In this document: positions 1,917 to 15,154 of the stretch, piece after piece
Layout: every line of letters starts with the position of its first letter
Position numbering within the stretch: position 1 is the first letter of the stretch
Sequence record: OR234014.1
Source: Staphylococcus phage SAC
Length of the DNA stretch: 64,000 nt
Reading direction: 5' to 3' (one strand)
Notes under the pieces: generated by a model
What the model was told of the DNA's origin: nothing
What the model saw: the letters and a program-made list of their open reading frames with translations, nothing else
The model's database searches: none
Translations under genes and position numbers: made by a program

Positions 1917-1990
1917 GGTTCCTTAGGTAGCCCCATAGCCCTGTCAGACCCACCCACTTTAGTGGCATTTTACCCCTGCCCCCGTATAAT
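1917..1990. other. GC-rich island (about 60% GC) in AT-rich DNA; possible core of a small RNA or protein-binding site
   Basis: 'ggttccttaggtagccccatagccctgtcagacccacccactttagtggcattttacccctgcccccg'. Contains the palindrome ccactttagtgg and the direct repeat tagcccca/tagccc. Confidence 0.3.
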
Positions 1991-2031
1991 ATATTTATAT
2001 TAACCTATTGTATACAATCCTAATAAATAAT

Positions 2032-2066
2032 AAAAAAAAAGAAAGGGAGTTTATTCCCTTTCAATT
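2032..2066. terminator. bidirectional rho-independent terminator
   Basis: A9 run, stem GAAAGGGA / TCCCTTTC with loop gtttatt, then a T-rich tail. U-tracts are present for transcripts of both strands. It overlaps the stop of the 2071..2415 gene. Confidence 0.7.
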
Positions 2067-2070
2067 TGTT

Positions 2071-2415
2071 TTACATCATTTCTATAGCTTCTGATTTAAT
2101 TTGTTCATAGTCTTTAATGTGTTTATTAAACTCTTCAACACGCATATGTTCCAATATATAATCTGCTAACTCAAACACTTTATTATCAACTAGTCTTATT
2201 GTTGTATCGTCTGTAAAGTCTAGGTTAGACGGTATATATTCTAATGGTGTTATGTCTTTATTCTCTTTTAATTGGTTTACAATATGAATGTATTTGCATA
2301 GTAAATCGTGTTCAACAACATCTACCTCTATTGTTTCATAGATAGCTGTTAATAATAAGTCAAATTCAATTCCTTCAAGTTCTGCTGTTTGTTCCATTTG
2401 GTTAAGTAATTTCAT
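2071..2415 (-). CDS. hypothetical early protein (paralogue of 2758..3108)
   Basis: 114 aa. Shares the pattern L..AI.E...V.E.D.L.KY.H...QL...PSN.D...HM..E.F with 2758..3108. Own promoter upstream. Confidence 0.6.
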   Translation of the reverse strand: MKLLNQMEQTAELEGIEFDLLLTAIYETIEVDVVEHDLLCKYIHIVNQLKENKDITPLEYIPSNLDFTDDTTIRLVDNKVFELADYILEHMRVEEFNKHIKDYEQIKSEAIEMM

Positions 2416-2458
2416 AGTTTATCAATCCCTTTTCTTTTATTTGTATTTCCTTAATTAC

Positions 2459-2486
2459 ATTATATCAAATATACAGTTAATTGCAA
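2459..2486 (-). promoter_or_regulatory. promoter TTGCAA-16-TATAAT
   Basis: Minus-strand TTGCAA (2481-2486) and TATAAT (2459-2464), upstream of the 2415 start. Confidence 0.5.
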
Positions 2487-2519
2487 TAGTTTTAGTTAAT
2501 TATTTTGGGAAGTTTTACA

Positions 2520-2780
2520 CTAATGATTATTCAGTAATTCTTTTATTACGTCTGGTGCTAGTGTTGTTATGTCATAGTCTTGTCTTAACTCATCTAAACT
2601 ATTGTACTGTTTAATCGTTCCGCTGTCTTTGTCACTGCCTTTAATTGTTTGTTTGCTTACTGTTTCGTTAATAGCTTCATCAATATCAGTGAAGCTATTA
2701 ACGTTGTCCATTATATCTATAAGTTCTTTATCAGATAAGTTCATGTGTAATGTCTCCTTAGAATAGCATTTGTTCTGCAT
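2520..2780 (-). CDS. hypothetical early protein
   Basis: 86-aa ORF co-oriented in the early gene array. Confidence 0.5.
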   Translation of the reverse strand: MQNKCYSKETLHMNLSDKELIDIMDNVNSFTDIDEAINETVSKQTIKGSDKDSGTIKQYNSLDELRQDYDITTLAPDVIKELLNNH

Positions 2781-3108
2781 TAAATTCTAGTGTTTCAATA
2801 TCCATAATCATTTGTTCAAATTGTTCTTTGTTCATGTGGTTTAAGATAACGTTAGTAAAGTGTTCTGCTTTGTCTTGTGCTAATATAGCTCCCTCGTAAG
2901 TGCTATAATCAATGTTAGATGGTTTACGTTCTGCTTGTGTTAATGCTTCCTTGTTTAATAACTGTTGTTCTAAGTGGTTGTATTTATCTAATGCATCATA
3001 TTCAACAAGCTCTGTCATAACCGCTTCCTCAATTGCTAAAACTAATAATCTTTCAAGTTTAGTGTTTCCGTTTGCCATTTCTTTTACTGTGTTTTTCATT
3101 ATAATCAA
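2758..3108 (-). CDS. hypothetical early protein (paralogue of 2071..2415)
   Basis: 116 aa. Conserved early promoter immediately upstream. Confidence 0.6.
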   Translation of the reverse strand: MIIMKNTVKEMANGNTKLERLLVLAIEEAVMTELVEYDALDKYNHLEQQLLNKEALTQAERKPSNIDYSTYEGAILAQDKAEHFTNVILNHMNKEQFEQMIMDIETLEFNAEQMLF

Positions 3109-3149
3109 TTCCTTTTCTGTTTGTTTTTTATTTGTTGTGTTCCTTACAT

Positions 3150-3184
3150 CTATTATATTACACTATCTTAGGTGTAGTGTCAAC
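3150..3184 (-). promoter_or_regulatory. early promoter unit (TTGACA-17-TGTAATATAAT plus upstream A/T tract)
   Basis: Minus-strand 'aaaaagtgTTGACActacacctaagatagTGTAATATAATag'. Near-identical copies at 3608, 4544, 5010 and 5399. Confidence 0.7.
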
Positions 3185-3190
3185 ACTTTT

Positions 3191-3292
3191 TTAAAACTTT
3201 TTTAAGTTTTTTTTAGTGTTCTCTATAGTTACAATAGCATCCGTCTTTTGTGTTGAACGGTATTTCTTACCTTTGTATTTAAACTTAATCAT
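3191..3292 (-). CDS. small ORF (33 aa), truncated member of the 'MIK(F/V)KYKGKKYRSTQ' family
   Basis: MIKFKYKGKKYRSTQKTDAIVTIENTKKNLKKF. RBS AAGGGG. The 48-aa paralogue is at 4157..4303. The ORF runs into the downstream promoter's A/T tract. Confidence 0.3.
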   Translation of the reverse strand: MIKFKYKGKKYRSTQKTDAIVTIENTKKNLKKF

Positions 3293-3307
3293 GTTAATAA
3301 TCCCCTT

Positions 3308-3583
3308 TTATTTTGTTTGTACATTGCAATATAGTTTATATTCCAAGTAATCTTCTTTTTTGATGTATTCATTGAAATCCCCTATAACATTTGTTAGGTT
3401 TATCCATGAGTTTGTTGCCTTACTAAAACCTCTTAGTGTTATTAATCCAGTAGGCAATTTGAATTGTTCTCTTTTTAATCCTAATTCTTTTCCTATGCTG
3501 TCTTTGATGTATTTAACATCTTTTTTAATTTCTGTTATTGTTGTTTTTGGTTTAGTTTCTATTTTAATATTCATGTGTATCAA
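3308..3583 (-). CDS. hypothetical early protein
   Basis: 91-aa ORF with the conserved early promoter upstream. Confidence 0.55.
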   Translation of the reverse strand: MIHMNIKIETKPKTTITEIKKDVKYIKDSIGKELGLKREQFKLPTGLITLRGFSKATNSWINLTNVIGDFNEYIKKEDYLEYKLYCNVQTK

Positions 3584-3607
3584 TCCTTTTCTGTTTGTTT
3601 ACTACAT

Positions 3608-3641
3608 CTATTATATTACACTATCTTAATGATAGTGTCAA
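3608..3641 (-). promoter_or_regulatory. early promoter unit
   Basis: Minus-strand 'gtgTTGACActatcattaagatagTGTAATATAATagatgtagtaaacaaacagaaaagg'. Confidence 0.7.
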
Positions 3642-3700
3642 CACTTTTTTAAAACTTTTTTAAGTTTTTTTATTTGTTTGCTGTTCTTTGTTGTGTTCCT

Positions 3701-3991
3701 TTATAGTCTTCCTGCATTAATAAATAACTCTAACTGTTTGTTTAACTCATCCATAATAAAGCTATCAAGTTCATGAGCAGTAATATTATATTTCTTGTTT
3801 CCTGATGTCATTGAAACTACATTGTACACGTTATCGAATTTGTTAAAGTAAATACCATATTGTAACAAACCCCAATCATTAACATAAATATCAGTAACAT
3901 CTAAGTTATTATGTTTGCTTGAAGCTTCGTTCTGTGTTCTAATAACTGTATAATCTTGGTTTAATTCTTCTAAAGTTTTATAGTTTTTCAT
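3701..3991 (-). CDS. hypothetical early protein
   Basis: 96-aa ORF. RBS AGAGGGA. Confidence 0.55.
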   Translation of the reverse strand: MKNYKTLEELNQDYTVIRTQNEASSKHNNLDVTDIYVNDWGLLQYGIYFNKFDNVYNVVSMTSGNKKYNITAHELDSFIMDELNKQLELFINAGRL

Positions 3992-4043
3992 AAGTAATCA
4001 ATCCCTCTTCTTTTTTTGTTTGTTGTGTTCCTTACTACAATTA

Positions 4044-4075
4044 ATATATTACAGTATAAGCTCGTATTTGTAAAG
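4044..4075 (-). promoter_or_regulatory. early promoter variant (TTTACA-17-TGTAATATATT)
   Basis: Minus-strand 'TTTACAaatacgagcttatactgTAATATAtt'. Confidence 0.5.
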
Positions 4076-4142
4076 TATTATATCAAAGAAATAAGGGAAG
4101 TTTTACACTAATGTGAAGCGGTTATATAGGCATAAAAAAATA

Positions 4143-4165
4143 AGGGTGGTTAGCCCTTATCTAAT
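4143..4165 (-). terminator. rho-independent terminator
   Basis: Stem ataaggg / cccttat with loop tggttag. Followed by a T7 run on the minus strand (plus-strand A-run at 4134-4140). Confidence 0.6.
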
Positions 4166-4303
4166 AAATATATTAATATTCTCTTGTAATCTAATAAACC
4201 AGTCTATCAATGTGATTACTGCTGTACCACCTAGAATAGTTACAATAGCATCTGTATTTTGTGTTGAGCGGTATTTCTTGCCTTTATATTTAACTTTAAT
4301 CAT
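4157..4303 (-). CDS. small protein (48 aa), 'MIKVKYKGKKYRSTQ' family, C-terminal hydrophobic segment
   Basis: MIKVKYKGKKYRSTQNTDAIVTILGGTAVITLIDWFIRLQENINIFIR. RBS AAGGGA. Its stop lies inside the terminator stem. Confidence 0.45.
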   Translation of the reverse strand: MIKVKYKGKKYRSTQNTDAIVTILGGTAVITLIDWFIRLQENINIFIR

Positions 4304-4355
4304 TGTGTATCAATCCCTTATTTTTATTTTTTAAGCCTATGTAATAGGCTTTTGG

Positions 4356-4502
4356 CTATGACCAATTTATATCTTGTCTTTCTTTCTCTAGTTTTACCAG
4401 TTGTCTACGTAAAAAACGTGCTAACTCTCTGCTATTCCTACCATATATTAAGGCTTGCTGTACCTCGTCAATTTCTCTTAAAACTATTCTTATATCTCTC
4501 AT
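4356..4502 (-). CDS. small basic helical protein (48 aa)
   Basis: MRDIRIVLREIDEVQQALIYGRNSRELARFLRRQLVKLEKERQDINWS. Sits directly downstream of an early promoter. Confidence 0.4.
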   Translation of the reverse strand: MRDIRIVLREIDEVQQALIYGRNSRELARFLRRQLVKLEKERQDINWS

Positions 4503-4543
4503 TTTAATACCCGCCTTTTTTGATTTGTTTTTGTATTACATCT

Positions 4544-4575
4544 ATTATATTACAGTATCTTAAATGTAATGTCAA
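4544..4575 (-). promoter_or_regulatory. early promoter unit
   Basis: Minus-strand 'TTGACAttacatttaagatactgTAATATAATagatgtaatac'. Confidence 0.7.
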
Positions 4576-4583
4576 ACATTATT

Positions 4584-4817
4584 TTAACCTTTTTTAACAA
4601 GTTTTGTTTTTCCATTTTCAAGTGTTAGTTTCACGCATTTGTCTGTTGTTGTAATTTCTTTTACATTGCTATTGTAAAGAGCATGACAAGCTTTATTAAT
4701 ATGATAGTATAAATCATCACATTCTTCCATATCTGACCACAGTCTATAATCATTTGATATAGAACCTTGTGCTTTAATTCTGTTATAAGTTCCTTTAATG
4801 TAATATAAATATTTCAT
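4584..4817 (-). CDS. hypothetical early protein
   Basis: 77 aa. RBS GGAGG lies in the 3' end of the upstream small ORF. Confidence 0.55.
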   Translation of the reverse strand: MKYLYYIKGTYNRIKAQGSISNDYRLWSDMEECDDLYYHINKACHALYNSNVKEITTTDKCVKLTLENGKTKLVKKG

Positions 4818-4818
4818 A

Positions 4819-4974
4819 TTATTTAACCTCCGTATAGTGTATTACAAGGCTATAACCTTGCTTTGTTGGTTCGTGGTATGCTCGTGTGATAATTACGTTG
4901 TTTTCTCTCTCGAATTGTTCCATTTCATAGCCGTAGTTCTTATATGGTTTACTGTTAGTAATTAGTGTTTTCAT
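4819..4974 (-). CDS. small ORF (51 aa)
   Basis: MKTLITNSKPYKNYGYEMEQFERENNVIITRAYHEPTKQGYSLVIHYTEVK. Stop TAA is 1 nt before the next ATG. Confidence 0.4.
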   Translation of the reverse strand: MKTLITNSKPYKNYGYEMEQFERENNVIITRAYHEPTKQGYSLVIHYTEVK

Positions 4975-5009
4975 AATTAATCAATTCCTTTTCTGTTTGT
5001 TTACTACAT

Positions 5010-5044
5010 CTATTATATTACACTATCTTAATGATAGTGTCAAC
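5010..5044 (-). promoter_or_regulatory. early promoter unit
   Basis: Near-identical to the 3608-3641 copy. Confidence 0.7.
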
Positions 5045-5046
5045 TA

Positions 5047-5361
5047 TTATTTTAACTTTTTTTCTTTAATAATTTCTGCATTCTCATTCACTAGGTATAA
5101 CGTATTATCTAGCTCTATAAATAAGTGTTTGTTCACTACCTTAACATTAATGTTAATTGGTAATCTATTTGAATGTGATACGCTAAAGACTTTCGTTTCT
5201 TTAAATAGTTCTAATGTTTCATAACTACCATCAATGTAAGCTAAATATTTAACTTGATAATGTGTTGAGTATTTTAAGTCATTTCTATAGTAGTTATTGC
5301 TTTTGTAACCGTCCATGTCTAAAAGTTCTATTAGTATATCTCCAATTTGATTTACGTTCAT
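5047..5361 (-). CDS. hypothetical early protein
   Basis: 104-aa ORF. Confidence 0.55.
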   Translation of the reverse strand: MNVNQIGDILIELLDMDGYKSNNYYRNDLKYSTHYQVKYLAYIDGSYETLELFKETKVFSVSHSNRLPININVKVVNKHLFIELDNTLYLVNENAEIIKEKKLK

Positions 5362-5398
5362 ATCTTATCAATTCCTTTCGGTTTGTTTACTACGCTTA

Positions 5399-5429
5399 TT
5401 ATATTACAGTATCTTGTATTTAATGTCAA
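5399..5429 (-). promoter_or_regulatory. early promoter unit
   Basis: Minus-strand 'TTGACAttaaatacaagatactgTAATATAATaagcgtagtaaacaaaccgaaagg'. Confidence 0.65.
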
Positions 5430-5685
5430 TAGGTTATACGAAAGTTTTTCAAAAGAAATGATTTCTTACTATTATATAGAAGAAACTAGAAATTACAGCT
5501 TAAATTAATTATTATAATCAATCGATTTAATTGTATACAATGCAGTGTAAAAATAACCATTTAATTTGATTAAAGGTATTGCATTTATATGTCAGTCTAT
5601 TAAAAGAAATAATGATATAGAAACAATAAAAAAGTTAGAAAAAGAATTACAAGAATTATATAAAAGAATTATATAAAAGAGTTAT

Positions 5686-5715
5686 AGATTAGGCTATTAA
5701 CCTAATCTTTTTTTA
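5686..5715 (+). terminator. plus-strand rho-independent terminator
   Basis: Perfect 8-bp stem agattagg / cctaatct, loop ctattaa, followed by T7 on the plus strand only. Confidence 0.6.
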
Positions 5716-5943
5716 TGTTGTTTGAAGCGGTTAATATAAAGGGAAAACAGCGCCTGCTACTTAGGAAAATCATAGATTTATACTTATGATGTTTATAACA
5801 GTAAGAGAGCATTAAGCTTATAGGTCTATATTCAACGGTAATACTTTTTAGGTAGTATTTATCCTATAATATTTACTTGCTTATATAAGGTAGTTAAATA
5901 GGCAATACAAGCATATGAAAAAGCTAGAGTAAAGCAACCCTAG

Positions 5944-6351
5944 CTACTTAATTTGATTCAAAATATCCTTAACAGCTTCTAATGTTAAATCTGATAACTT
6001 AATATTCTTATCACTATTAGTATCAATAATTACAGTATAGTTATCTACATCATACTGTATAACTTTAAGTACTGAATAAGTAACTAACTCGTATTCTGTA
6101 TGTGTGTGATATTCTATCATTGCGTACCCTATACCTAATTCAGTTAAGATAGGTTCTAATGTTTTTCTTCTCTCCATAAAATCTTTAATAGTATATTGCA
6201 TACCGTCTTTACTTAAAAATGCAGGCTCGTCATTGTAAATATAAAATAAATTCTCAATAAGTTCTAGTAAATCTTCTTCTGTTCCCTCACAAAGACTTAC
6301 TGTATAAAGTAATTCATCGTATAATTTATCCTTTGCTTCTTGAATATTCAT
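5944..6351 (-). CDS. hypothetical protein
   Basis: 135-aa ORF. RBS AGGAGG. Confidence 0.55.
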   Translation of the reverse strand: MNIQEAKDKLYDELLYTVSLCEGTEEDLLELIENLFYIYNDEPAFLSKDGMQYTIKDFMERRKTLEPILTELGIGYAMIEYHTHTEYELVTYSVLKVIQYDVDNYTVIIDTNSDKNIKLSDLTLEAVKDILNQIK

Positions 6352-6964
6352 TGATATTCCTCCTTTATCCTATCCTAAGTGTATCATAAGTTTTAGGTAA
6401 TGTAAAGTATTTTATTTTAACCAGTATCTAACTTATCCGCTTCATTAATCCAACCTTAATTTAATCCCTGATACTTATCTTTTATCATACATACCTGTAA
6501 TAATTACTTGTCTGCAGAAAAGGTCTAAAGCTTTCATATTCAATATATTGTAGTAACAAAACATACTTAGCAACTTGTAACATAACTGTAATATTATTAT
6601 AATGCTGTTGTAACTAAATTCTCATCTAATTCTCATAAACATATGTTATAATCTAAACAACAATTAATTAGTTGTTAGTATTTTAATACGAATAACTTAT
6701 TACAGGCGTTACCTTGTTGTAGCGTAGCGTAAAACAACAAGGTATACGCTGTTTTGTTCTTATCTTTTTAAAAAGATAAGTCGTACGGTTAGTACGAAAT
6801 ACAAATATATAAATAAGTAATAACAAATATTTATACATAACTAACAGATAAATATACAAATTATTAGATTAACTATGTTGAAACGGGCATACTATGCTCA
6901 AATTGATATACAATTATTAGCCAAGATTAAATACAACATAATTACTCAGAATATAAATATAATA

Positions 6965-6993
6965 TAAAAAAGAAGCGGTTTAATACCGCTTCT
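6965..6993 (-). terminator. rho-independent terminator
   Basis: Stem agaagcggt / accgcttct with loop ttaat. T-run follows on the minus strand. Confidence 0.55.
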
Positions 6994-7160
6994 ACTTCTT
7001 CAATATGATATTATAAATACTGTTTATCTTCTTTAACTAACCTTAATAAAGCATACTCATTCTCAATGACACTATAACCCTATAAGATATCTTGTAATAT
7101 TAATCTAGTCCCTACAGGTGTTAGTGTACATACTGATGTTCATTAAAGTCAGCCTCTCTA

Positions 7161-7442
7161 TTATTTACCAAATCTTTCTTTAGCAATCTTTTTCATTTGC
7201 TCTTTGCGCTCATTACTTACCGGTTTTCTTAATGTAATTAAATCCTCATCTAATACAACTTTAACCAATACTGGTGTTTCATTTTCTAATTGTTCTAATA
7301 CTTCCACCTTATCAGGGTACTTTTTCATAATATCAGTAATATAAGGTTTTCTACTTGCATAAATAATCCATTGCCCTTGATTATAATTCATACTTACTTC
7401 TTGTTCTTCAAAACTATATCCTCTACTTACAACTTTAGTCAT
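7161..7442 (-). CDS. hypothetical protein
   Basis: 93-aa ORF. RBS AAGGAGGG. Confidence 0.5.
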   Translation of the reverse strand: MTKVVSRGYSFEEQEVSMNYNQGQWIIYASRKPYITDIMKKYPDKVEVLEQLENETPVLVKVVLDEDLITLRKPVSNERKEQMKKIAKERFGK

Positions 7443-7568
7443 TCTAATACCCTCCTTTATATTTAAGACCCTTAAGCTAGGGACGTTATAGTTCTATATT
7501 AAACGATAATCATTTTCTAGTAGTATTTATCCTATAAAATAACTTAATCTTTAAGAGCCTAATAACCT

Positions 7569-7877
7569 TTATAATAAATTAGTGATTAACCTAACTGTTT
7601 CTAAGGTAATAGGGTTGCTTTTACTGTCTACATAAGACAGTTCACTATCGAAACCAGAACCACTTAAATAGATTTGATTACGTTCCACATTAAATACAAT
7701 TAATTTAGTAGGGTCTACTTTACTAAACACTACTACATATTCCTTGCCATTGGCTAAAGGAAGAATAGCTCCGCCTGTTATTTTTTGAATTTTTTTGATT
7801 ACAACAGAATCGTCTTCCATCATAGTTTCTTCTTTGTTCATACCTTCTTGTACTATTTTTCTTTTTATTGTTTTCAT
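7569..7877 (-). CDS. hypothetical protein
   Basis: 102-aa ORF. Confidence 0.5.
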   Translation of the reverse strand: MKTIKRKIVQEGMNKEETMMEDDSVVIKKIQKITGGAILPLANGKEYVVVFSKVDPTKLIVFNVERNQIYLSGSGFDSELSYVDSKSNPITLETVRLITNLL

Positions 7878-7879
7878 TG

Positions 7880-8089
7880 TTATTTCCCCTTATCCATAAA
7901 TACAGTAACTATAATGTTTTGTAAACACTTAATAATCTTATCTCTTTGAGTGTCAGATACTTCATACAAGTCTTCTGTATTATCTAAGAAGCGGTTAAAT
8001 TCATCTTGATTAGTAAAATCTACACCTTTATTAGTCTCATCTAAAAATTTCTCAATAACTCTTTCTGCTATTTTTTTATTACTACTCAT
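7880..8089 (-). CDS. hypothetical protein
   Basis: 69-aa ORF, tightly packed with its neighbours. Confidence 0.45.
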   Translation of the reverse strand: MSSNKKIAERVIEKFLDETNKGVDFTNQDEFNRFLDNTEDLYEVSDTQRDKIIKCLQNIIVTVFMDKGK

Positions 8090-8103
8090 TATCTATTCTC
8101 CTT

Positions 8104-8406
8104 TTATTTTTTAGTAACTGTATAATACTCGTCATTAGTAAGTTTACTAATATCTATATCTTCTTCAGAAAAATATAGATTTTTATCATCTTTACTTAAT
8201 TGTTTTAATACACTATCAATGTATATAGGTAATACCTTCCCATCATTAAAAACCACATCAATACTATCTTTTAAGTATATATGATTCTCATCTATGATTG
8301 TATAAATATTATAATCTTCTAATACCTTACTCCCAATTAACGCTACTTTTCCGTTACTCATATTAAGAACTCCTTTTATATAATATTTGAAGTGGTTATA
8401 CTTCAT
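8104..8406 (-). CDS. hypothetical protein
   Basis: 100-aa ORF. Confidence 0.5.
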   Translation of the reverse strand: MKYNHFKYYIKGVLNMSNGKVALIGSKVLEDYNIYTIIDENHIYLKDSIDVVFNDGKVLPIYIDSVLKQLSKDDKNLYFSEEDIDISKLTNDEYYTVTKK

Positions 8407-9133
8407 TCATAGGATATTCCAGATAATACTTAATTGTTTGTAAAGGTTTATGTACATTAGTGCCATAACCATAGGAATAAATTCCATAAGTATCAGAGTA
8501 AAATTTCTTTATATCAATTAACTCAACTTCTCTATATACTACAACATTATATGGAGATACTACAAACTCATAATCTCCTCCCATAAAAGTATTATATAGT
8601 ACTTGTTTTAACTCAAGACCACTAGTGACTATATCCTTATAGAAGAAGTTGAGATAGTTATCTACTGTATTAAGAAAGTCTTTTACACCTGTATACTCTT
8701 TATAAATATTAATCCAACCTAATTCTAATTCATAATATAGGTTACCCTCTTCATCAAAACTTAGTTTAAGTTTAACCGTATCAATATCTTTACGATGTAT
8801 ATTAAAAGATTGCTCTAAGAAACCTACATCCCAAATATGCTTAACTCCATTAAAATTCTTTAAACCTTTGATACTTAACTGAGCAATAGCTTTGGACATT
8901 AACTTTTCTTCTTTGGTATTTAACTTATGTCTTGATAAGTATTCATAACCATTAAAGTCATATACATATTGGTTATCATCTTTACCTACGCTAATTGACT
9001 TTAAATATTTTTTATTAGTTTCTACATAGTATAAAACACCACCAAGACCAAATAATCCTAAAAAACCACCAATATAATCAACAGAGTAACCTTGTTTCTT
9101 ATACTCTTTAATTTCTTTTCTCTTACTAAACAC
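8396..9133 (-). CDS. hypothetical protein
   Basis: 245-aa ORF. Confidence 0.55.
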   Translation of the reverse strand: MFSKRKEIKEYKKQGYSVDYIGGFLGLFGLGGVLYYVETNKKYLKSISVGKDDNQYVYDFNGYEYLSRHKLNTKEEKLMSKAIAQLSIKGLKNFNGVKHIWDVGFLEQSFNIHRKDIDTVKLKLSFDEEGNLYYELELGWINIYKEYTGVKDFLNTVDNYLNFFYKDIVTSGLELKQVLYNTFMGGDYEFVVSPYNVVVYREVELIDIKKFYSDTYGIYSYGYGTNVHKPLQTIKYYLEYPMNEV

Positions 9134-9152
9134 TATAGCACTCCCTTATACA

Positions 9153-9512
9153 TTATTCTACTTGCTCTTCCATAGATTGAATTGTATGTAGTACCATAGT
9201 AGCTAAATCTCTAATTATCTCAAGTTCATCACTATCTTCATATACATTAGTTAAAGTATCACAGAAAGAGCATGAACCGTAAAAATCACTAACAGTGATA
9301 TCTGGAACACCCTCTACCTTTGATTTAAATTTAGATATAATAGTACCTGAGTAACCATCACCATCATTAATAACAATAGGGTTTGTGTCATGTGTATCTT
9401 TCAACACTAACTCCCCTGCTAACTTGTGTAAGTCTTCATAGAAATAATGCTCATGTTCATCAATAAATTCCATAATATAATCTGTAGTTATACCTTTAGC
9501 TTGTTCTAACAT
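9153..9512 (-). CDS. hypothetical acidic protein
   Basis: 119-aa ORF. RBS AGGAGGA. Confidence 0.5.
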   Translation of the reverse strand: MLEQAKGITTDYIMEFIDEHEHYFYEDLHKLAGELVLKDTHDTNPIVINDGDGYSGTIISKFKSKVEGVPDITVSDFYGSCSFCDTLTNVYEDSDELEIIRDLATMVLHTIQSMEEQVE

Positions 9513-9537
9513 TATATTTTCCTCCTTATTTTTACAA

Positions 9538-9939
9538 TTATTTTAAATTATCTATCGTACTCTTAATCAAATATCCTTCTGGATTAAAAATCTCTTGAAT
9601 AGCAATAGGCAAGCCTATTAATAGCACTAAAAAAGAAATAATAGACAGAGTAACAGCAAATATAATTACTGTGCATCCTGCAGCAGAAAGCTCTTTTTCA
9701 TTCTTATAAACAAACTCAAATAATAGGGTACTATGACCTTCATTAGACTTTTTATCTGACTTATACAAAGCCACCCATAAGATAGCTGTTATAGATAATA
9801 ATATACTTATTGAACATAAATCTATAATACCTTGAGTAACTGTGTATTTAATTAAGGATTCATAACCATGTGTACCTGCTTGCTCTAACTTACCACCTAA
9901 ACTATCTAAACGTTCTAATACTTCTTTATTCATATCCAT
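9538..9939 (-). CDS. membrane protein (2 predicted TM helices)
   Basis: Two hydrophobic segments: ILLSITAILWVALY and TVIIFAVTLSIISFLVLLIGLPIAI. Confidence 0.5.
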   Translation of the reverse strand: MDMNKEVLERLDSLGGKLEQAGTHGYESLIKYTVTQGIIDLCSISILLSITAILWVALYKSDKKSNEGHSTLLFEFVYKNEKELSAAGCTVIIFAVTLSIISFLVLLIGLPIAIQEIFNPEGYLIKSTIDNLK

Positions 9940-9964
9940 ATTATATTCACTCCTTTAATCTTTA

Positions 9965-10003
9965 TATACTAAGTATAAACCTTAACACACATAAAATCAA
10001 CAC
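9965..10003 (-). promoter_or_regulatory. class-2 promoter with TATACT-N-AGTATA palindrome
   Basis: Minus-strand TGTTGA...TTATACTTAGTATA...AAAGGAG. Same architecture at 13113, 15481, 16933 and 22090. Confidence 0.45.
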
Positions 10004-10089
10004 ATTTATGTAAGAGATATAAAAAAATACCTATAGTTATAATAGCTATAGGTATAAATTTTCATATAGAAGCGGTTATATATAATACT

Positions 10090-10398
10090 CTACTTACCTA
10101 GGAACGTACGAATTTCCTTTAGACGCTCTTTTTCTTTTCTGCACTTTTCATCTAAAGATTCCTCATAGTAATCAATAAGACTATAGATACTACTGAATCC
10201 TTTAGGTAGTAATGTGTCACTGTTAATAACCTCTTTTACTACTCTACCATTTTTGATAAACTTCATGTTATTATAATGTTTATCATCATTAACTTTAATA
10301 CAGTAACCTTCACCTAAGTCATAAGTATACCAATCCCCACTACCAAAGTTACAATGACCTAATATATACTCAAATAATTCACTTACCATAATATCCAT
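10090..10398 (-). CDS. hypothetical protein
   Basis: 102-aa ORF, ATGA-coupled to the upstream gene. Confidence 0.5.
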   Translation of the reverse strand: MDIMVSELFEYILGHCNFGSGDWYTYDLGEGYCIKVNDDKHYNNMKFIKNGRVVKEVINSDTLLPKGFSSIYSLIDYYEESLDEKCRKEKERLKEIRTFLGK

Positions 10399-10745
10399 TA
10401 TTCTAACCTCCCATACTCATACATAACTTTATTTTCATATTCTGTATATAAATACCCTAGTAATATATAGATATTAGTATACAAACCTTCTAGCTCCTCT
10501 AAGTCTTTAATTGTTCCCACCTCAAGCGTATCACTCAAAGGAAATACTATATTATCCGCTTCCTCAAACCTAGCAATGATATGGTTGTCTTTATATACAA
10601 GAATATAAATAAGGCTATTACCTACTCTACACCTTACTTTATAACCCCTACCTAAGTACACCTCATAATCTGTAATATTCTCCATTATGCCAGTAACTTC
10701 TCCATACTTCCTACAAAACTTAGCTAATTTTGACATAGTAACCAA
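10398..10745 (-). CDS. hypothetical protein
   Basis: 115-aa ORF. Confidence 0.5.
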   Translation of the reverse strand: MVTMSKLAKFCRKYGEVTGIMENITDYEVYLGRGYKVRCRVGNSLIYILVYKDNHIIARFEEADNIVFPLSDTLEVGTIKDLEELEGLYTNIYILLGYLYTEYENKVMYEYGRLE

Positions 10746-10870
10746 CTCCTTTTTTACCTTTTAAACTTTTCTTCTAGGGAAAACCTATCTAATTTTACCT
10801 AAATGTCAACCATAGAATGCGGGTTCAAGCCCTATTTTTACCTTTGACTACTTTTTCCTAGAGAAAAACT

Positions 10871-11209
10871 TTAGTTATACTGTTCTACTTGTTCTCCAAA
10901 TATATTATACATATATTTTTGATAAGCACTATCTTTTAAATACTTATCATACTCATCTACTAGTATCTTATACATATTACTAACTACATCTTTCAATAAG
11001 GAAACATACACCTTACCTGTACCTTGTACTACTACTTCATACTCACTCATATCATCATATACCATAATAGCACAACCAAAATAAGTATCTTCCAGAAAGA
11101 ACCTATAAATATACTTATCATCACTTGTTCTTATACAATTTGTATACTTAAACTCACCTATACCTGATTTATTATGTAACACTCTATCTAGTATATCTAA
11201 TTCTTCCAT
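10871..11209 (-). CDS. hypothetical protein
   Basis: 112-aa ORF. Confidence 0.5.
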   Translation of the reverse strand: MEELDILDRVLHNKSGIGEFKYTNCIRTSDDKYIYRFFLEDTYFGCAIMVYDDMSEYEVVVQGTGKVYVSLLKDVVSNMYKILVDEYDKYLKDSAYQKYMYNIFGEQVEQYN

Positions 11210-11414
11210 AATAAGCCCCTTTCTATTGTGTTAATAAAACACCTACTCCATATATAAACATAATCAATATAAGTATAGTTAAAAACACTGCTAACTTAAA
11301 TCTATTACTATTACCTTCTTTACTATATACTCTATAACATATATCTATATCTATAACTAAATACATTAATGATAAACTTACTACAAAGTAACCTATACTA
11401 ATACCCTCTTTCTA

Positions 11415-11615
11415 TTACATACCTAACATATGTAGTATTATAGAAGCAAAAACTAAAACAGTTAAAACAAAAGAAACAATAAGATATATACTAAAAAACA
11501 CTTCTTTCTGCTTAATAGATTTAACTATATCAGTAATTAAAGCACTAAGCATACCAACTATAATACTAATACCTAAAATACTAACCGCAATATACATTAA
11601 AGTTGAACTTATCAT
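11415..11615 (-). CDS. small membrane protein (2 TM)
   Basis: 66 aa, almost entirely hydrophobic. Confidence 0.45.
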   Translation of the reverse strand: MISSTLMYIAVSILGISIIVGMLSALITDIVKSIKQKEVFFSIYLIVSFVLTVLVFASIILHMLGM

Positions 11616-11855
11616 CTACAACTCTCCTATATAATAAAGTACTCTACTTACTATGTAACCTAAACTCAAAACAATAGAAATAGTACCAATACAAATACTC
11701 ATAAATAATAAACCAAACACACAAGCTGATTCTAAATCACTAACACTATCATAATTATCAAGTACATGCTTATAATACTTCTTACCAAACCTTATACTTA
11801 GTACAATACCAATAGTAGCTAAAAATATAGCAACGATACTTATAAATATACTCAT
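11616..11855 (-). CDS. small membrane protein (2 TM)
   Basis: 79 aa, hydrophobic. Confidence 0.45.
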   Translation of the reverse strand: MSIFISIVAIFLATIGIVLSIRFGKKYYKHVLDNYDSVSDLESACVFGLLFMSICIGTISIVLSLGYIVSRVLYYIGEL

Positions 11856-11920
11856 AAACTAATCCCCCTTTTTATTGAAGCGGTTTTTATTTCCATTACT
11901 TACCTTACAAAAACCGCTTC

Positions 11921-12106
11921 CTAAATACCAAATAAAGCTAATATACTTGATACCAGTACAACCGTCATAACTGTAAATGATACGATATTAGTCCACTTAT
12001 CAAACCTATCATACTTAATTGACTGAACCATTTCTACTAGAATAAAGGTATACATAAACAAAACCATTACAGCTACTATTGTAAGTAACATTGTTAGTCC
12101 TATCAT
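11921..12106 (-). CDS. small membrane protein (2 TM)
   Basis: 61 aa, hydrophobic. Confidence 0.4.
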   Translation of the reverse strand: MIGLTMLLTIVAVMVLFMYTFILVEMVQSIKYDRFDKWTNIVSFTVMTVVLVSSILALFGI

Positions 12107-12108
12107 AT

Positions 12109-12303
12109 CTATCTCTCCTTCCTATCAGACATATGATGTAATACAGAGAGTATAAAAGCAAGTACAAAAGCAAGTACAAAAGGAATTAAACATGTAATAG
12201 GAATTACCTCTTCCCCTATGATTAAATTCCCTACCCACATACCTAAAATTACTCCTGCTAAACAAAATATATAACGTAAAATAAACTCCAATGCTTTACT
12301 CAA
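12109..12303 (-). CDS. small membrane protein (2 TM)
   Basis: 64 aa, hydrophobic. Adjacent to three similar genes. Confidence 0.4.
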   Translation of the reverse strand: MSKALEFILRYIFCLAGVILGMWVGNLIIGEEVIPITCLIPFVLAFVLAFILSVLHHMSDRKER

Positions 12304-12350
12304 CTTACTTCCTCCTTTATAATTATTCTCAAGTATAACTTAACAAAATA

Positions 12351-12560
12351 CTACTTTAATAACCTTTGTTTAAAGAATCTTACTACGTCTTCACCATAAC
12401 ATACAGATAAAAATACATTATCCCCTGTAACCCTAAAACCACTATCTATACATCTATTTTCGATGTAGTAGTCATTAACTTTTAATGTACTCATGTCCCC
12501 TAAAACTTCTATTTTATATCCTAACTGATTTAAATGTACATAAATATCTGATAAACTCAT
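12351..12560 (-). CDS. hypothetical protein
   Basis: 69-aa ORF. Confidence 0.4.
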   Translation of the reverse strand: MSLSDIYVHLNQLGYKIEVLGDMSTLKVNDYYIENRCIDSGFRVTGDNVFLSVCYGEDVVRFFKQRLLK

Positions 12561-12685
12561 AATACAACTCCTCGTTACTAAGTCTTTATTGAAGCGGTTA
12601 TTTAACCCCTCTATATACTAGTACTACACATAATAATACAAGTGCTGTACATATGTAAGTATACTGAATATTACTATATACCAAA

Positions 12686-13087
12686 TCACAATACGTTACC
12701 ATCTTTCCATATAGTAACTAACTCATTATCTACAACAGTACTAACAGACAATAACCATGTATTTTTACCTTCGACATAGTAGTCAATAACTTCATTAATA
12801 CTACTTCTATACCATACTGAGTTTAATACACTGTTACCTTGCTTATAAGTAACTACTATACTACTTAACTCAGTAGAAGCATCTATAACCGCTTCTACAA
12901 TAAACTTAGTGTCATTAGGTATAGTAATAGATTTATTAGGATACAATGCATTATAAAACGATATATCATCAACAGTTATAACAACAATAAACTGACTATC
13001 AGTAGAATAGTGTCGACCTTTTTTTATATCACCTTTATAATACATATACATTAATTCTATAAACGAAACTTCTCTTTTAATCTTCAT
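12686..13087 (-). CDS. hypothetical protein
   Basis: 133-aa ORF. RBS AAAGGAG. Class-2 promoter upstream. Confidence 0.5.
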   Translation of the reverse strand: MKIKREVSFIELMYMYYKGDIKKGRHYSTDSQFIVVITVDDISFYNALYPNKSITIPNDTKFIVEAVIDASTELSSIVVTYKQGNSVLNSVWYRSSINEVIDYYVEGKNTWLLSVSTVVDNELVTIWKDGNVL

Positions 13088-13112
13088 AATAAATCATCTC
13101 CTTTAACTTTAT

Positions 13113-13149
13113 ATACTTAGTATAAACCATAAGTAATATACTGTCAACA
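13113..13149 (-). promoter_or_regulatory. class-2 promoter (TTGACA-17-TATACT with palindrome)
   Basis: Minus-strand 'gTTGACAgtatattacttatggttTATACTaAGTATAtaaagttaaaggag'. Confidence 0.55.
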
Positions 13150-14119
13150 CATATGTGTAAAATAGTTAAAATTTCTTTATTGTTCGGAAATTACTAAATA
13201 TATTAAACTTTTACTCTAGGGAAAATTAAGTCAATACTACCACAGAAACAAACTATATATATATATTAAATAAGCAATGTTCAGAATTATAGTATACCAT
13301 ATACACAATATCTGATACTAAATATACCTTTATACACAGTAAATACTACTTCAGCTTAGTTTAACTACACATTAGAATAGTTTAGCATATAATCAGCATA
13401 GTTTAATACTACATAAGCATAGTTCACAGTAGTTAAAACTATATAAAAATAAATAGTTAGATGTCTAATAGTTAGATACCTAACTATTTATACACTATGA
13501 AGGTGGGAAGCAAAGAAATTCCTAGGTAACTGTTCTTACTTGCTACTTGCTACTTAGTATATAGGTATACCATGTACCTGTTTTCTTTTAATTACTTACT
13601 AGCTATTACTTAGTATCTACTTATTTATCTATCTAGAAGATGTAAAGAAATTACTAGGTAACTGTTCTTACCTAACCTAAGTGATAGTGGTAGCTACTTT
13701 CTTTTAGCTACTTTCTTTTAGTTACTTACCTATTACTTAATATCTATTACTTACTATTAGAATATTTATTAATACTTAAGTTACTTAATAATTCTTTCTT
13801 CTTATTATTCATATCTTCAAACTGTTATACAGTATTTATTTACTTATTTATTTACTTATCTATTTAGCTATTACTTATACACTACCTACTACCTACTGCT
13901 TATCTATGTGCTATCAATTATTGTTTTTTTATCTATTATTTATTTCCTTGATATATAGGTACTTATAATATCAGTTGTTTCTTTATGTGTTACTTATCTG
14001 ATTTCTTTATCTACTTATATATATTGCTTTCTTTTACCTATTACTTACTTATATAACTTCTACCTACATCAATCTCTATACCTATTTGTTTGTCTGTTTG
14101 GTTGTTTACTCTTCTACAC
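13130..14119. repeat. 1-kb non-coding CT-rich (plus strand) low-complexity region with iteron-like repeats
   Basis: The plus strand is almost G-free. Degenerate TTACTTA / CTAC units. 28-nt direct repeat at 13512-13539 and 13644-13671 (27/28 identical). Tandem 'agctactttctttta' x2 at about 13693-13722. No ORFs. Confidence 0.6.
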
Positions 14120-15154
14120 TTACCTATATACATGTCTATATCTTTTAATTACTTCTTTACTATCTATATTAGAGTATTTAAATGTTCTTTGTAGGTTACT
14201 TAATATATGTTTAAAGGTAGATTTTCTAGCATCAATCTCTATATATTGTATACTATTTTCTTTACAATATTCTCTCTTTTCTATGTCTGATAATTTTGTT
14301 TTCTGGTGGTTCATGTATCCACTGACTTCTTGGTAATGTTGAACACCGTGTACTTCTATAACGGTATTATACTTAGGTAAGAAAAAATCAAATCTTTTTT
14401 TACCTAATTCTTTAAATTTATATTCTCTAATATACTCTATGTTTGCAATATCTAAATAACTTTGTGTTAATCTTTCTCCGAAGCTAGAGTATTGTTTAGA
14501 GCATTGACAGCTATAGTTATCTTTAATTAAATCTGTAATTCTAATATCTTTTTTTCTTTTACAATTAGGACAAATCGTTTCTATCTTTTTCTTAGTTGTA
14601 TACTTATATTTAAATAAGTCTTTATATTTAACATACTTATGAATATGTTTCTTATGGTATAACATCTTAGATTGAGGAATAGTACCATATGGTATATAGT
14701 TATCAGTTTTATATTTTAGTAAATTTTGTTTACTTACTTTACCATAGACTTCTTCCTTTATGTTATATACATAAAGTTGTGTACCTAAATGAGTGTCTAC
14801 TACTTTTAGTACTTCGCAATTTTTAATAATATCTCCTTGTTTTATATTATGAACAGTATAAGACTTCTGACCTTGGGTAATAAAGTTGAATTTAACCTTA
14901 TAGACATTAGCTACTTGGGTAGCTTGGGTTTTATTGTTGTAAGTTATTTCTACTCTAGATTCTTTTTTAGTTGGTGTAAGGTATTTAATATAGAGCTTAC
15001 CTTTCGTGCTATGATACTCAAAGGGTATATAATGGTTTACATTTACCCAATCAATACGAGACTTCTTTTTAGGTAAGGAAGATAAGTCTATATAGCTTAT
15101 AACACCTTGTTTTGTTTTTGAATAATATATGTCTTGTTCTTTCCAGTACTCCAT
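14120..15154 (-). CDS. putative free-standing endonuclease (DUF559 / Vsr-like PD-(D/E)xK with Zn-ribbon)
   Basis: 344 aa. 'CPNCKRKKD...CQCSKQ' Cys cluster. C-terminal 'RFDFFLPKYNTVIEVHGVQHY' resembles the DUF559 catalytic motif (fDF.lp...iEvdG..H). Confidence 0.4.
   Translation of the reverse strand: MEYWKEQDIYYSKTKQGVISYIDLSSLPKKKSRIDWVNVNHYIPFEYHSTKGKLYIKYLTPTKKESRVEITYNNKTQATQVANVYKVKFNFITQGQKSYTVHNIKQGDIIKNCEVLKVVDTHLGTQLYVYNIKEEVYGKVSKQNLLKYKTDNYIPYGTIPQSKMLYHKKHIHKYVKYKDLFKYKYTTKKKIETICPNCKRKKDIRITDLIKDNYSCQCSKQYSSFGERLTQSYLDIANIEYIREYKFKELGKKRFDFFLPKYNTVIEVHGVQHYQEVSGYMNHQKTKLSDIEKREYCKENSIQYIEIDARKSTFKHILSNLQRTFKYSNIDSKEVIKRYRHVYR

What the first reader, a model, noticed from the sequence alone, without database searches (positions are those of the whole stretch)
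13130..14119. One-kilobase ORF-free region with extreme strand asymmetry (C/T only on the plus strand) and iteron-like repeats
Between two minus-strand genes lies about 1 kb with no ORFs, where the plus strand is almost free of G over long stretches. It is built from degenerate TTACTTA/CTAC units. It contains a 28-nt direct repeat (13512-13539 and 13644-13671, 27/28) and a tandem 15-mer (about 13693-13722). Such polypurine/polypyrimidine, repeat-rich spacers are candidates for a replication origin, a packaging or recombination site, or H-DNA-forming regulatory DNA.
Basis: seen in the sequence. Interest (0 to 1): 0.6.

Follow-up and report, generated by a model that had tools for sequence, protein, structure and literature searches.

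The report
Phage genome end flanked by repeats
This gene-free kilobase is where the long terminal repeat of a Staphylococcus Silviavirus phage meets its unique DNA: it holds the fixed genome end, flanked by fast-changing tandem repeats, a layout already known in related K-like phages, so it is interesting but not new in kind.

Summary
The window is a Silviavirus (Romulus/Remus-like Staphylococcus myophage). The ORF-free gap 13088-14119 is real and is the largest in the window. The repeats are also real. The "C/T only" description is wrong: A is 33%, and the finding as a whole has median pyrimidine content. Only 13690-14119 is skewed (68% pyrimidine, 6.5% G), and the longest pure pyrimidine run is 12 nt.

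The region is the junction between the long terminal repeat (LTR, window 1925-13522) and unique DNA. Eight deposited Silviavirus records start at window-equivalent 13522 or 13521. In CIFT_MFB_MRSA32 the two boundary motifs lie exactly 10,893 bp apart, which is its published PhageTerm repeat length.

The LTR side (13307-13522) is a conserved block with 21-nt repeats and a terminator palindrome. The unique side (13523-14119) is a colinear chain of at least seven variable-number repeats plus a near-copy of the cut site. It corresponds to the "hypervariable repeat locus" of Kayvirus Sb-1.

A packaging-end site is supported. A replication origin and H-DNA are not. This is a new member of a known kind.

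The parts
13119..13147 (-). Sigma-70-type promoter (TTGACA-17-TATACT) for the first LTR gene (12686-13087)
   Evidence: 11 of 12 consensus match. A promoter is annotated at the same place in Romulus JX846613. The promoter aligns with the one before phage K's first LTR gene.
13307..13522 (.). Conserved non-coding block at the LTR terminus: the last 216 bp of the LTR before the physical end
   Evidence: 96.5% mean pairwise identity across 12 Silviavirus genomes. It is retained even where the neighbouring gene is replaced (CIFT32, phiRNIID, Koomba, KSAP7). Blocks of it align with the first roughly 300 bp of the phage K LTR. There is a weak match near the record start of Sepunavirus Quidividi.
13353..13424 (.). 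Repeats of 21-nt period, 3.4 copies (consensus AGCATAGTTTAACTACACATA), 98-169 bp from the genome end; candidate protein-binding array
   Evidence: Found by TRF and as family D9. In phage K orientation the unit reads TTAAACTATGCTGA, against phage K's TTAATCTATGCTGA repeats at an equivalent distance from its end. Any binding function is inferred.
13449..13491 (-). Palindrome (20-nt arms, 3-nt loop) acting as an intrinsic terminator for leftward transcription, 31-73 bp inside the LTR
   Evidence: Inverted repeat I3, 90% complementary. It is a perfect 21+1+21 palindrome in Romulus. The minus-strand RNA hairpin folds at -20 kcal/mol, z = -3.55, and is followed by a U-rich tail. It is annotated as a Rho-independent terminator in Romulus.
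13507..13539 (.). Cut-site repeat, copy 1. The physical genome end (LTR/unique boundary) lies between 13522 and 13523: GAAGCAAAGAAATTCC|TAGGTAACTGTTCTTAC
   Evidence: Records of SPJ2, LSA2311, SapYZU04, qdsa001, DELF3 and MR003 start at window-equivalent 13522, and VL10 at 13521; LSA2308 (+ orientation) was inferred from its LTR geometry, not mapped. In CIFT32 the distance to the other boundary motif is 10,893 bp, equal to the published PhageTerm repeat length. It is homologous to the phage K end TACCTG|GGAATTCTTTT.
13537..13557 (.). Variable-number heptamer repeat (TACTTGC/TACTTAC/TACTTGA) starting 14 nt outside the genome end; 3 units here
   Evidence: TRF reports period 7. Romulus has 26 units, and other phages have from none clearly recognisable to about 8. 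The bred derivative PM93 differs from Romulus across the 930-bp region only by one lost unit, 25 against 26.
13639..13671 (.). Cut-site repeat, copy 2: a near-copy with the core changed from TTCCTAGG to TTACTAGG, 132 bp outside the true end
   Evidence: It is present in all 12 aligned Silviavirus genomes; 11 carry the same C-to-A change, while SPJ2's copy at this position keeps TTCC (AAATTCCCAGGTAAATG). The SPJ2 group also carries a further copy in a roughly 370-bp insert. This parallels phage K, whose 35-bp repeats carry TAAGTACCTTTG where the true end has TAAGTACCTGGG.
13523..14119 (.). Unique-side hypervariable repeat tract, pyrimidine-rich on the plus strand. It is a colinear chain of variable-number repeats: 14-mer 13691-13727, 12-mer 13833-13866, ACTACCT 13881-13897, 24-mer unit 13978-14001, (TA)n 14016-14024, TTGTTTGG 14086-14107
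   Evidence: The distance from cut site to the downstream anchor ranges from 540 to 993 bp among 11 phages. It occupies the same position as the Sb-1 hypervariable array in Kayvirus.
1917..1935 (.). The other LTR boundary, outside the finding: GGTTCCTT|AGGTAGCCCC, with the LTR starting at 1925
   Evidence: The SPJ2 and LSA2311 records end at window-equivalent 1925. The CIFT32 spacing test gives 10,893 bp. It shares TACCT(A)AGGAA with the 13522 boundary on the minus strand. The adjacent GC-rich element is conserved in phage K.

Best explanation
The region is the junction between the long terminal repeat (LTR) and the unique DNA of a Silviavirus genome, and it contains the site where the packaging enzyme makes the fixed genome end.

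Shown:
- The window's LTR runs from 1925 to 13522 (11,598 bp).
- The end at 13522|13523 (...AAGAAATTCC|TAGGTAACTG...) is phage K's 'left' physical end, because the window is in reverse orientation relative to K.
- Reading from that end into the LTR there are, in order: 30 bp, a palindromic terminator, a conserved block with 21-nt repeats, and the promoter of the first early gene.
- Reading outward into unique DNA there are: a heptamer array that begins 14 nt away, a degenerate second copy of the cut site, and a chain of further variable-number repeats reaching to the last unique-region gene, a homing endonuclease.

Inferred mechanism:
- During packaging from concatemers, terminase recognises the cut motif together with the conserved LTR-side block. 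That block would play a cosB/pac-like role as the loading site.
- Terminase cuts at TACCYR|GGWA, a motif shared in degenerate form by both LTR boundaries and by Kayvirus.
- The palindrome stops late or middle transcripts that cross the junction from running into the early LTR genes.
- The unique-side tract grows and shrinks by replication slippage and unequal recombination next to a recombinogenic DNA end. It has been seeded partly by duplications of the cut-site flank, and most of those copies carry core changes, which may reflect selection against extra cut sites.

Whether the copy number of this tract also tunes packaging or host range, as reported for the homologous Sb-1 locus, is open.
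For: Identity of the phage: 47 matching records, all Silviavirus-type; the best match is 97.4% to Romulus/Remus.

Position of the genome end:
- The SPJ2 and LSA2311 records, deposited with both LTR copies, start at window-equivalent 13522 and end at 1925.
- SapYZU04, qdsa001, DELF3 and MR003 start at 13522, and VL10 (ends set by PhageTerm, PMC11035597) starts at 13521.
- In CIFT_MFB_MRSA32, |AGGTAGCC begins at 21666 and GAAATTCC| ends at 32558. That is 10,893 bp, exactly the PhageTerm repeat length published for this phage.

Homology to phage K: GTTACCTA|GGAATTTCTTTGC in Silviavirus against AGTACCTG|GGAATTCTTTTAC in K, with further conserved blocks in the first 430 bp of the LTR. In Kayvirus, 12-bp repeats at these positions are described as separating the LTR from unique DNA (PMC6022877, PMC4111496, PMC7596081).

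Anatomy and variability. Terminator.

Sb-1 counterpart: essentially the whole length difference between the two Sb-1 genomes (1,375 bp) lies in a complex repeat array that ends exactly at TAAGTACCTG|GGAATTC.

The two largest ORF-free gaps of the window coincide with the two LTR boundaries.
Against: - No sequencing reads or virion DNA of this particular phage were available, so its genome ends are inferred by homology (97% or lower identity).
- How SPJ2, LSA2311, qdsa001, DELF3, MR003 and SapYZU04 had their ends assigned is not known to me. Some may have been set by similarity to other records, so they are not fully independent.
- Nanopore-assembled LTRs of Romulus, PM93 and Remus end elsewhere: at 13466 and 13490 (both inside the palindrome) and at about 12399.
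- The core motif alone is not sufficient. TACCTAGGAA also occurs at 10095, and SPJ2 carries an outside copy (AAATTCCCAGGTAAATG) that matches the true site of other phages.
- No terminase binding has been shown.
- The substitution-rate comparison could not show purifying selection on the tract.
- The polarity of the repeat units differs between Kayvirus and Silviavirus, which argues against a sequence-specific role for the array.
Confidence: 0.8

Rival explanations
1. Apart from holding the cut site, the unique-side tract (13523-14119) is a neutral, slippage-prone spacer or 3' untranslated region with no function of its own. The repeats are by-products of recombination and replication restart at a DNA end.
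For: Length varies from 540 to 993 bp among relatives. Copy numbers change even in a laboratory-bred derivative. Repeat-unit polarity and sequence differ between Kayvirus and Silviavirus. There is no Rfam hit and no ORF. Alignable columns are no better conserved than the flanks.
Against: A tract of the same order and content is present in 46 of the 47 matching records, all but VL10, and an analogous array sits at the same position in Kayvirus. The degenerate cut-site copy 2 is present in all 12 aligned genomes. Allele state at the homologous Sb-1 locus was reported to correlate with host-range expansion (Sergueev 2019, known to me only through citing papers).
Confidence: 0.4
2. The tract is a contingency locus. 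Changes in repeat copy number alter infection success on different hosts, for example through a transcribed purine-rich RNA, a decoy for a host defence, or altered packaging or ejection.
For: It is the positional and structural counterpart of the Sb-1 hypervariable repeat locus. Citing papers say the genetic differences between host-range mutants and the parent were found in that locus, with adsorption unchanged. The K transcriptome paper names only one untranscribed locus, elsewhere, which implies the K junction is transcribed.
Against: The evidence is correlation only, and in another genus. I could not read the primary paper. No mechanism is known, there is no structured RNA signal, and the array sequence is not conserved between genera.
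Confidence: 0.2
3. The region is a replication origin with iterons.
For: It is ORF-free, AT-rich (GC 24-25% against 29%) and repeat-rich.
Against: There is one near-DnaA box in 1 kb against a background of 0.31 per kb. It is not the lowest-GC region, which is 26091-26540. In phage K the proposed origin is the untranscribed gap between gp190 and gp191, the only untranscribed locus reported. The repeats vary in number between isolates, unlike typical iterons.
Confidence: 0.06
4. The region is regulatory DNA that forms H-DNA (a triplex), owing to a polypurine/polypyrimidine tract.
For: 13690-14119 is 68% pyrimidine on the plus strand.
Against: A is 24-33% throughout. The longest uninterrupted pyrimidine run is 12 nt, shorter than at least ten runs elsewhere in the window. 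The whole finding has median pyrimidine content.
Confidence: 0.02

Closest known systems
Kayvirus (phage K-like) LTR boundaries marked by the 12-bp inverted repeats TAAGTACCTGGG / CCCAGGTACTTA (Lobocka 2012, as cited in PMC6022877, PMC4111496 and PMC7596081)
   Same: Same position: the junction of LTR and unique DNA, just upstream of the first early LTR gene. The ends are homologous (TACCTR|GGAATT(T)CTTT). The LTR-side non-coding leader, with TTAAWCTATGCTGA repeats and a promoter, is also homologous.
   Different: The literal 12-mer is absent. The window site differs from it at 4 of 12 positions, and no match within 2 mismatches falls at either boundary. The inverted-repeat relation between the two boundaries is only 9 of 12 with one gap. 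The Silviavirus LTR is longer here (11.6 kb). Silviavirus also has a 43-bp palindromic terminator 31 bp from the end that is not evident in K.
The 'hypervariable repeat locus' of Kayvirus Sb-1 (Sergueev et al. 2019, Appl Environ Microbiol 85:e01209-19; genomes MN336261 and MN336262)
   Same: A complex array of tandem repeats directly abutting the LTR start on the unique side. It contains near-copies of the cut-site flank, and its length differs greatly between close relatives.
   Different: The units differ (TACTACTATTAC and TACTACTAAGTACCTTTGTTATG in Sb-1, against TACTTRC, TAGCTACTTTCTTT and others here), and their strand polarity is opposite. The Sb-1 arrays reach 1.5 kb. The link to host range has not been tested in Silviavirus.
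The phage T7 concatemer junction, where the terminal repeat is flanked by arrays of short heptamer repeats (from my own knowledge of Dunn & Studier 1983; not checked here)
   Same: Fixed ends with a direct terminal repeat, and a heptamer array immediately next to the repeat boundary.
   Different: The T7 repeat is 160 bp, not 11.6 kb. The sequences and the terminase are unrelated. This is a resemblance in how it may work, not membership.
Phage T5 long terminal repeats, whose inner boundary carries repeat- and palindrome-rich non-coding DNA (the injection stop signal; from my own knowledge, not checked here)
   Same: Direct terminal repeats of about 10 kb that encode early host-takeover genes, with large repeat-rich non-coding regions at the repeat boundaries. 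Silviavirus papers call the packaging 'T5-like'.
   Different: No two-step DNA transfer is known for Herelleviridae. The T5 signal sits at the inner boundary of the left repeat, whereas this finding is at the junction of unique DNA with the right repeat.

Membership tests
Twortvirinae LTR/unique-DNA boundary (fixed genome end) | Lies exactly where the terminally redundant DNA ends | tested here: met
   Eight related records start at window-equivalent 13522 or 13521. The CIFT32 spacing between the two boundary motifs equals the published repeat length of 10,893 bp.
Twortvirinae LTR/unique-DNA boundary (fixed genome end) | The same segment is present at both ends of virion DNA | not testable with these tools
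   The window holds one copy. Related records deposited with both copies show the region twice (SPJ2, LSA2311, PM56, Romulus MW546077). No reads of this phage were available.
Twortvirinae LTR/unique-DNA boundary (fixed genome end) | The Kayvirus 12-bp motif TAAGTACCTGGG / CCCAGGTACTTA at the boundaries | tested here: not met
   No match within 2 mismatches at either boundary. The site here, CCTAGGTAACTG, differs at 4 of 12 positions. Homology is clear only over the wider roughly 30-nt context. Some Silviavirus phages are closer (Koomba has CCCAGGTACCTG).
Twortvirinae LTR/unique-DNA boundary (fixed genome end) | Short inverted repeats bracket the LTR | tested here: inconclusive
   CC-TAGGTAACTG against CCTAAGGAACCTA gives 9 of 12 with one gap. 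Because the core is palindromic (CCTAGG / CCTTAGG), a direct-repeat reading, TACCT(A)AGGAA, fits equally well.
Kayvirus-type hypervariable repeat locus (Sb-1) | A complex tandem-repeat array directly abutting the LTR start on the unique side | tested here: met
   Here the array begins 14 nt from the end. In Sb-1 it ends at TAAGTACCTG|GGAATTC.
Kayvirus-type hypervariable repeat locus (Sb-1) | Allele (copy-number) differences between closely related isolates | tested here: met
   Between 3 and 26 heptamer units, and six other variable-number repeats. PM93 differs from Romulus by one unit. Tract length ranges from 540 to 993 bp.
Kayvirus-type hypervariable repeat locus (Sb-1) | Allele state correlates with host range | not testable with these tools
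   This needs phenotyping. The primary paper was not held in the library, and I know it only through citing papers.
Iteron-type replication origin | Regularly spaced identical iterons, an AT-rich unwinding element, DnaA boxes, and an adjacent initiator gene | tested here: not met
   DnaA boxes are not enriched. The region is not the GC minimum of the window. The flanking genes are a protein of unknown function (phrog_467) and a homing endonuclease. Repeat numbers vary between isolates.
H-DNA-forming homopurine/homopyrimidine mirror repeat | A long uninterrupted purine or pyrimidine tract, roughly 15-20 nt or more, with mirror symmetry | tested here: not met
   The longest pyrimidine run is 12 nt, and A is 24-33%.

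The most novel reading that the evidence does not exclude
The repeat tract outside the genome end, with its near-copies of the cut site, may be a functional and rapidly mutating cis-element shared by at least two Twortvirinae genera. Changes in its copy number would tune how or how efficiently genome ends are made, or how early infection proceeds. That would shift host range after adsorption, making it a phage 'contingency locus' placed at the packaging site.
Probability: 0.2. Interest if true: 0.65.

Novelty: new member of a known kind. Interest (0 to 1): 0.35.

Why it matters
It fixes the physical ends of this therapeutic-type Staphylococcus phage genome: an LTR of 1925-13522 (11.6 kb). That matters for correct genome records and for engineering.

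It shows that the Silviavirus and Kayvirus ends are homologous. It offers a compact candidate recognition region for terminase (13307-13540).

It also shows, from the deposited Sb-1 genomes, that the host-range-associated 'hypervariable repeat locus' of Kayvirus sits exactly against the LTR cut site, and that Silviavirus has a counterpart. That makes the question of why copy number at this locus should affect host range testable in two genera. It also warns that short-read assemblies will break or collapse here.

Tried and rejected
- Rfam found nothing at E <= 1 on either LTR boundary.
- The only small ORFs are 20-34 aa of low-complexity sequence.
- Pfam found nothing for either flanking protein. 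PHROGs named only the right-hand one, as a homing endonuclease.
- I compared substitution rates in the tract with third-codon positions of the flanking gene to look for purifying selection. The test was uninformative because the flanking homing-endonuclease gene is 99.6% identical among the phages that carry it.
- I first took the LTR end from the Nanopore-assembled Romulus record (13466, at the palindrome centre). I dropped it because Remus (about 12399) and PM93 (13490) from the same study disagree, whereas records built from read termini and the 10,893-bp spacing test agree on 13522.
- The Sergueev 2019 and Kvachadze 2011 papers were not held in the library, so I compared the deposited Sb-1 genomes directly.
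- VL10 appears to lack the unique-side tract. I treat this as a probable assembly break, not as absence, and it remains unresolved.
- DnaA-box, GC-minimum and pyrimidine-run checks did not support an origin or H-DNA.
- The C-rich element at the other boundary does not fold significantly better than shuffled sequence (z = -1.4).

Full report
**What the window is**

BLAST of 13000-14300 against GenBank phage records gave 47 matching records, all Silviavirus-type. These are Staphylococcus myophages of the Herelleviridae, subfamily Twortvirinae. The best match is 97.4% to Romulus/Remus.

The finding lies between two minus-strand genes. One is a 133-aa protein at 12686-13087 (phrog_467, annotated elsewhere as 'intron-encoded nuclease'). 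The other is a 344-aa homing endonuclease at 14120-15154 (phrog_9084).

**Checking the observation**

- The ORF-free gap 13088-14119 (1,032 bp) is real and is the largest in the window. The second largest, 1432-2070, turned out to hold the other LTR boundary.
It extends to 33 nt at 91% identity and is not expected by chance.
- The 'tandem 15-mer' is a 14-mer, TAGCTACTTTCTTT, with 2.6 copies at 13691-13727.
- TACTTA is 18-fold enriched in 13523-14119.

The composition claim is overstated:

- The finding is 32.6% A and 9.5% G, against a window-wide G of 11.7%.
- Its pyrimidine content, 57.9%, is the window median.
- Only 13690-14119 stands out, at 68.4% pyrimidine and 6.5% G.
- The longest pure-pyrimidine run is 12 nt, against 18 nt elsewhere.

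So this is not a polypyrimidine tract, and H-DNA is not a reasonable reading.

**What it is**

Silviaviruses, like other Twort-like phages, have long direct terminal repeats (LTRs) of 5-11 kb.

Several deposited relatives are written starting at their physical end, in the opposite orientation to the window:

- SPJ2 and LSA2311 start at window-equivalent 13522 and end at window-equivalent 1925.
- SapYZU04, qdsa001, DELF3 and MR003 also start at 13522.
- VL10, whose ends were set with PhageTerm, starts at 13521.

I made one independent quantitative test. In CIFT_MFB_MRSA32 the motif |AGGTAGCC begins at 21666 and GAAATTCC| ends at 32558. That is 10,893 bp, exactly the PhageTerm repeat length published for that phage.

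So the window's LTR is 1925-13522 (11,598 bp).

The Nanopore-assembled LTRs of Romulus, PM93 and Remus end at 13466, 13490 and about 12399. They disagree with one another, so I treat them as imprecise.

**Relation to phage K**

In K the LTR genes are on the plus strand, so the window is in reverse orientation. Position 13522 therefore corresponds to K's left end.

| Phage | Junction sequence (K orientation) |
|---|---|
| K | ...CTAAGTACCTG\|GGAATTCTTTTACC... |
| Silviavirus (window) | ...CAGTTACCTA\|GGAATTTCTTTGCT... |

The following 430 bp of non-coding LTR leader align in blocks. These include repeated TTAAWCTATGCTGA units and the promoter of the first LTR gene.

The literature describes the K-like boundaries as 12-bp inverted repeats, TAAGTACCTGGG / CCCAGGTACTTA. 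That literal 12-mer is not present here. The site is a diverged homologue, and it varies within Silviavirus: TAGGTAAC, CATGTACC, CAGGTACC and CAGGTAAC all occur.

All four boundaries (two in K, two in Silviavirus) fit yTACCy(a)RGGwA in direct orientation. The LTR starts at GG at one boundary and ends 2 nt before GG at the other. A single cut geometry that leaves 2-nt 3' overhangs would explain this. This is my inference and is untested.

**Anatomy**

*LTR side.*

- 13307-13522 is a conserved block: 96.5% identity across 12 genomes. It is retained even where the adjacent gene is replaced.
- It contains repeats of 21-nt period at 13353-13424.
- It also contains a 43-bp palindrome at 13449-13491. 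On the minus strand this forms a hairpin of -20 kcal/mol (z = -3.55) followed by a U-rich tail. It is annotated as a terminator in Romulus.
- The promoter for the first LTR gene is at 13119-13147.

*Unique side.*

- 13523-14119 is colinear in the 12 genomes I aligned but is built from at least seven variable-number repeats.
- These are the heptamer TACTTRC, the 14-mer, a 12-mer, ACTACCT, a 24-mer, (TA)n and TTGTTTGG.
- The heptamer array starts 14 nt from the end. It has 3 units here and 26 in Romulus.
- The tract also holds the degenerate cut-site copy 2 (TTACTAGG instead of TTCCTAGG), which is present in all 12 genomes.
- Tract length ranges from 540 to 993 bp.
- The bred phage PM93 differs from its parent Romulus across 930 bp only by the loss of one heptamer.

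**The Kayvirus counterpart**

In K the unique side of the same junction is a tandem 35-bp repeat. Its units carry TAAGTACCTTTG, against TAAGTACCTGGG at the true end.

Among 207 matching Staphylococcus phage records (mostly Kayvirus by name) only 21 cover this side, while the LTR side matches in nearly all the records listed.

[quoted passage not shown] Essentially all of that (about 1,372 bp) lies in a complex (TACTACTATTAC)n / (TACTACTAAGTACCTTTGTTATG)n array. The array ends exactly at TAAGTACCTG|GGAATTC.

The finding is therefore the Silviavirus counterpart of that locus. I could not read the primary paper. Citing papers say the genetic differences between host-range mutants and the parent were found in this repeat structure, with adsorption unchanged.

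**How it most likely works**

Shown: the position of the genome end, the conserved and variable architecture, the terminator hairpin, and the homology to K.

Inferred:

- Terminase initiates at this boundary on concatemers. It recognises the cut motif together with the conserved LTR-side block.
- The core motif alone is not sufficient. TACCTAGGAA recurs at 10095, and SPJ2 has a consensus-like extra copy outside the LTR.
- The palindrome insulates the early LTR genes from read-through across the junction.
- The outside tract expands and contracts by slippage and unequal exchange next to a recombinogenic end.
- It is partly seeded by duplicated cut-site flanks, and most of those copies carry core changes.

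Whether its copy number has a function is open.

**Rivals**

- Origin of replication. There is no DnaA-box enrichment and this is not the GC minimum of the window. K's proposed origin is elsewhere, and that was the only untranscribed locus reported, which implies the K junction is transcribed.
- H-DNA. Excluded by composition.
- Structured RNA or small protein. No Rfam hit and no credible ORF.
- Artefact. Excluded, because the unique-side tract is present in 46 of the 47 matching records.

**Verdict**

This is a new member of a known kind: a Twortvirinae LTR boundary with an adjoining hypervariable repeat locus. Interest is moderate. The useful products are:

- a precise genome end for this phage
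- a candidate recognition block for terminase
- the link between the host-range-associated repeat locus and the cut site, now seen in two genera

Noticed in passing
window 1576-2070 (+): At the other LTR boundary (1924|1925), a duplicated 72-nt promoter unit (1576-1647 and 1841-1912; TTGACT-17-TATAAT) points into a C-rich, GC-rich element of about 65 nt (1925-1990). That element is conserved between Silviavirus and phage K and is followed by a hairpin at about 2040-2062. In phage K a small RNA, snc004, was mapped across the equivalent boundary (PMC9241854). The fold z-score here is only -1.4 and there is no Rfam family.
   Followed up: partly
window 26182-26553: An ORF-free gap of 372 bp that coincides with the lowest-GC stretch of the window (20.7% over 26091-26540). 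On composition it is a better origin-like candidate than the finding, but I did not examine it.
   Followed up: no
window 14120-15154 (-): The 344-aa homing-endonuclease ORF is intact here and in RP15, KSAP7 and CIFT32. It is annotated as shorter or split CDSs in Romulus (181 aa plus 145 aa), and a short 181-aa CDS is annotated at the same place in Stau2 and Koomba-kaat_1. It is absent from phiRNIID, HM01 and SAP_01, where homology breaks at window position ~14171. Its last ~17 codons therefore read into the ancestral non-coding tract.
   Followed up: partly
L027 (Sb1_8383, MN336261) locus 1120-1290: Inside the Sb-1 repeat array there is a partial copy of about 170 bp of the LTR start, with the cut core changed from GGAATTC to GGTATTC. 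This suggests the arrays grow by duplicating the junction, and the copy carries a core change.
   Followed up: partly
OP940114 (VL10), record start and end (L008, L009): The VL10 record begins at the conserved genome end, but it has no match to the unique-side repeat tract, and its last 600 nt match neither LTR boundary. The short-read assembly probably broke in the repeats.
   Followed up: partly
MH321490 (Sepunavirus Quidividi) 172-232: A weak match (82% over 61 nt) to the 21-nt repeat block, at a similar distance from that record's start. This hints that the LTR-terminal block is conserved in a third genus.
   Followed up: no
L002/L003 (Romulus MW546077), L004-L007 (Remus, PM93): The LTRs in the Nanopore-completed Romulus, Remus and PM93 records (5,319 bp, 7,342 bp and longer) have mutually inconsistent boundaries. 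Two of them end inside the 43-bp palindrome, and one left boundary falls inside a CDS. These deposited LTR limits look imprecise.
   Followed up: partly
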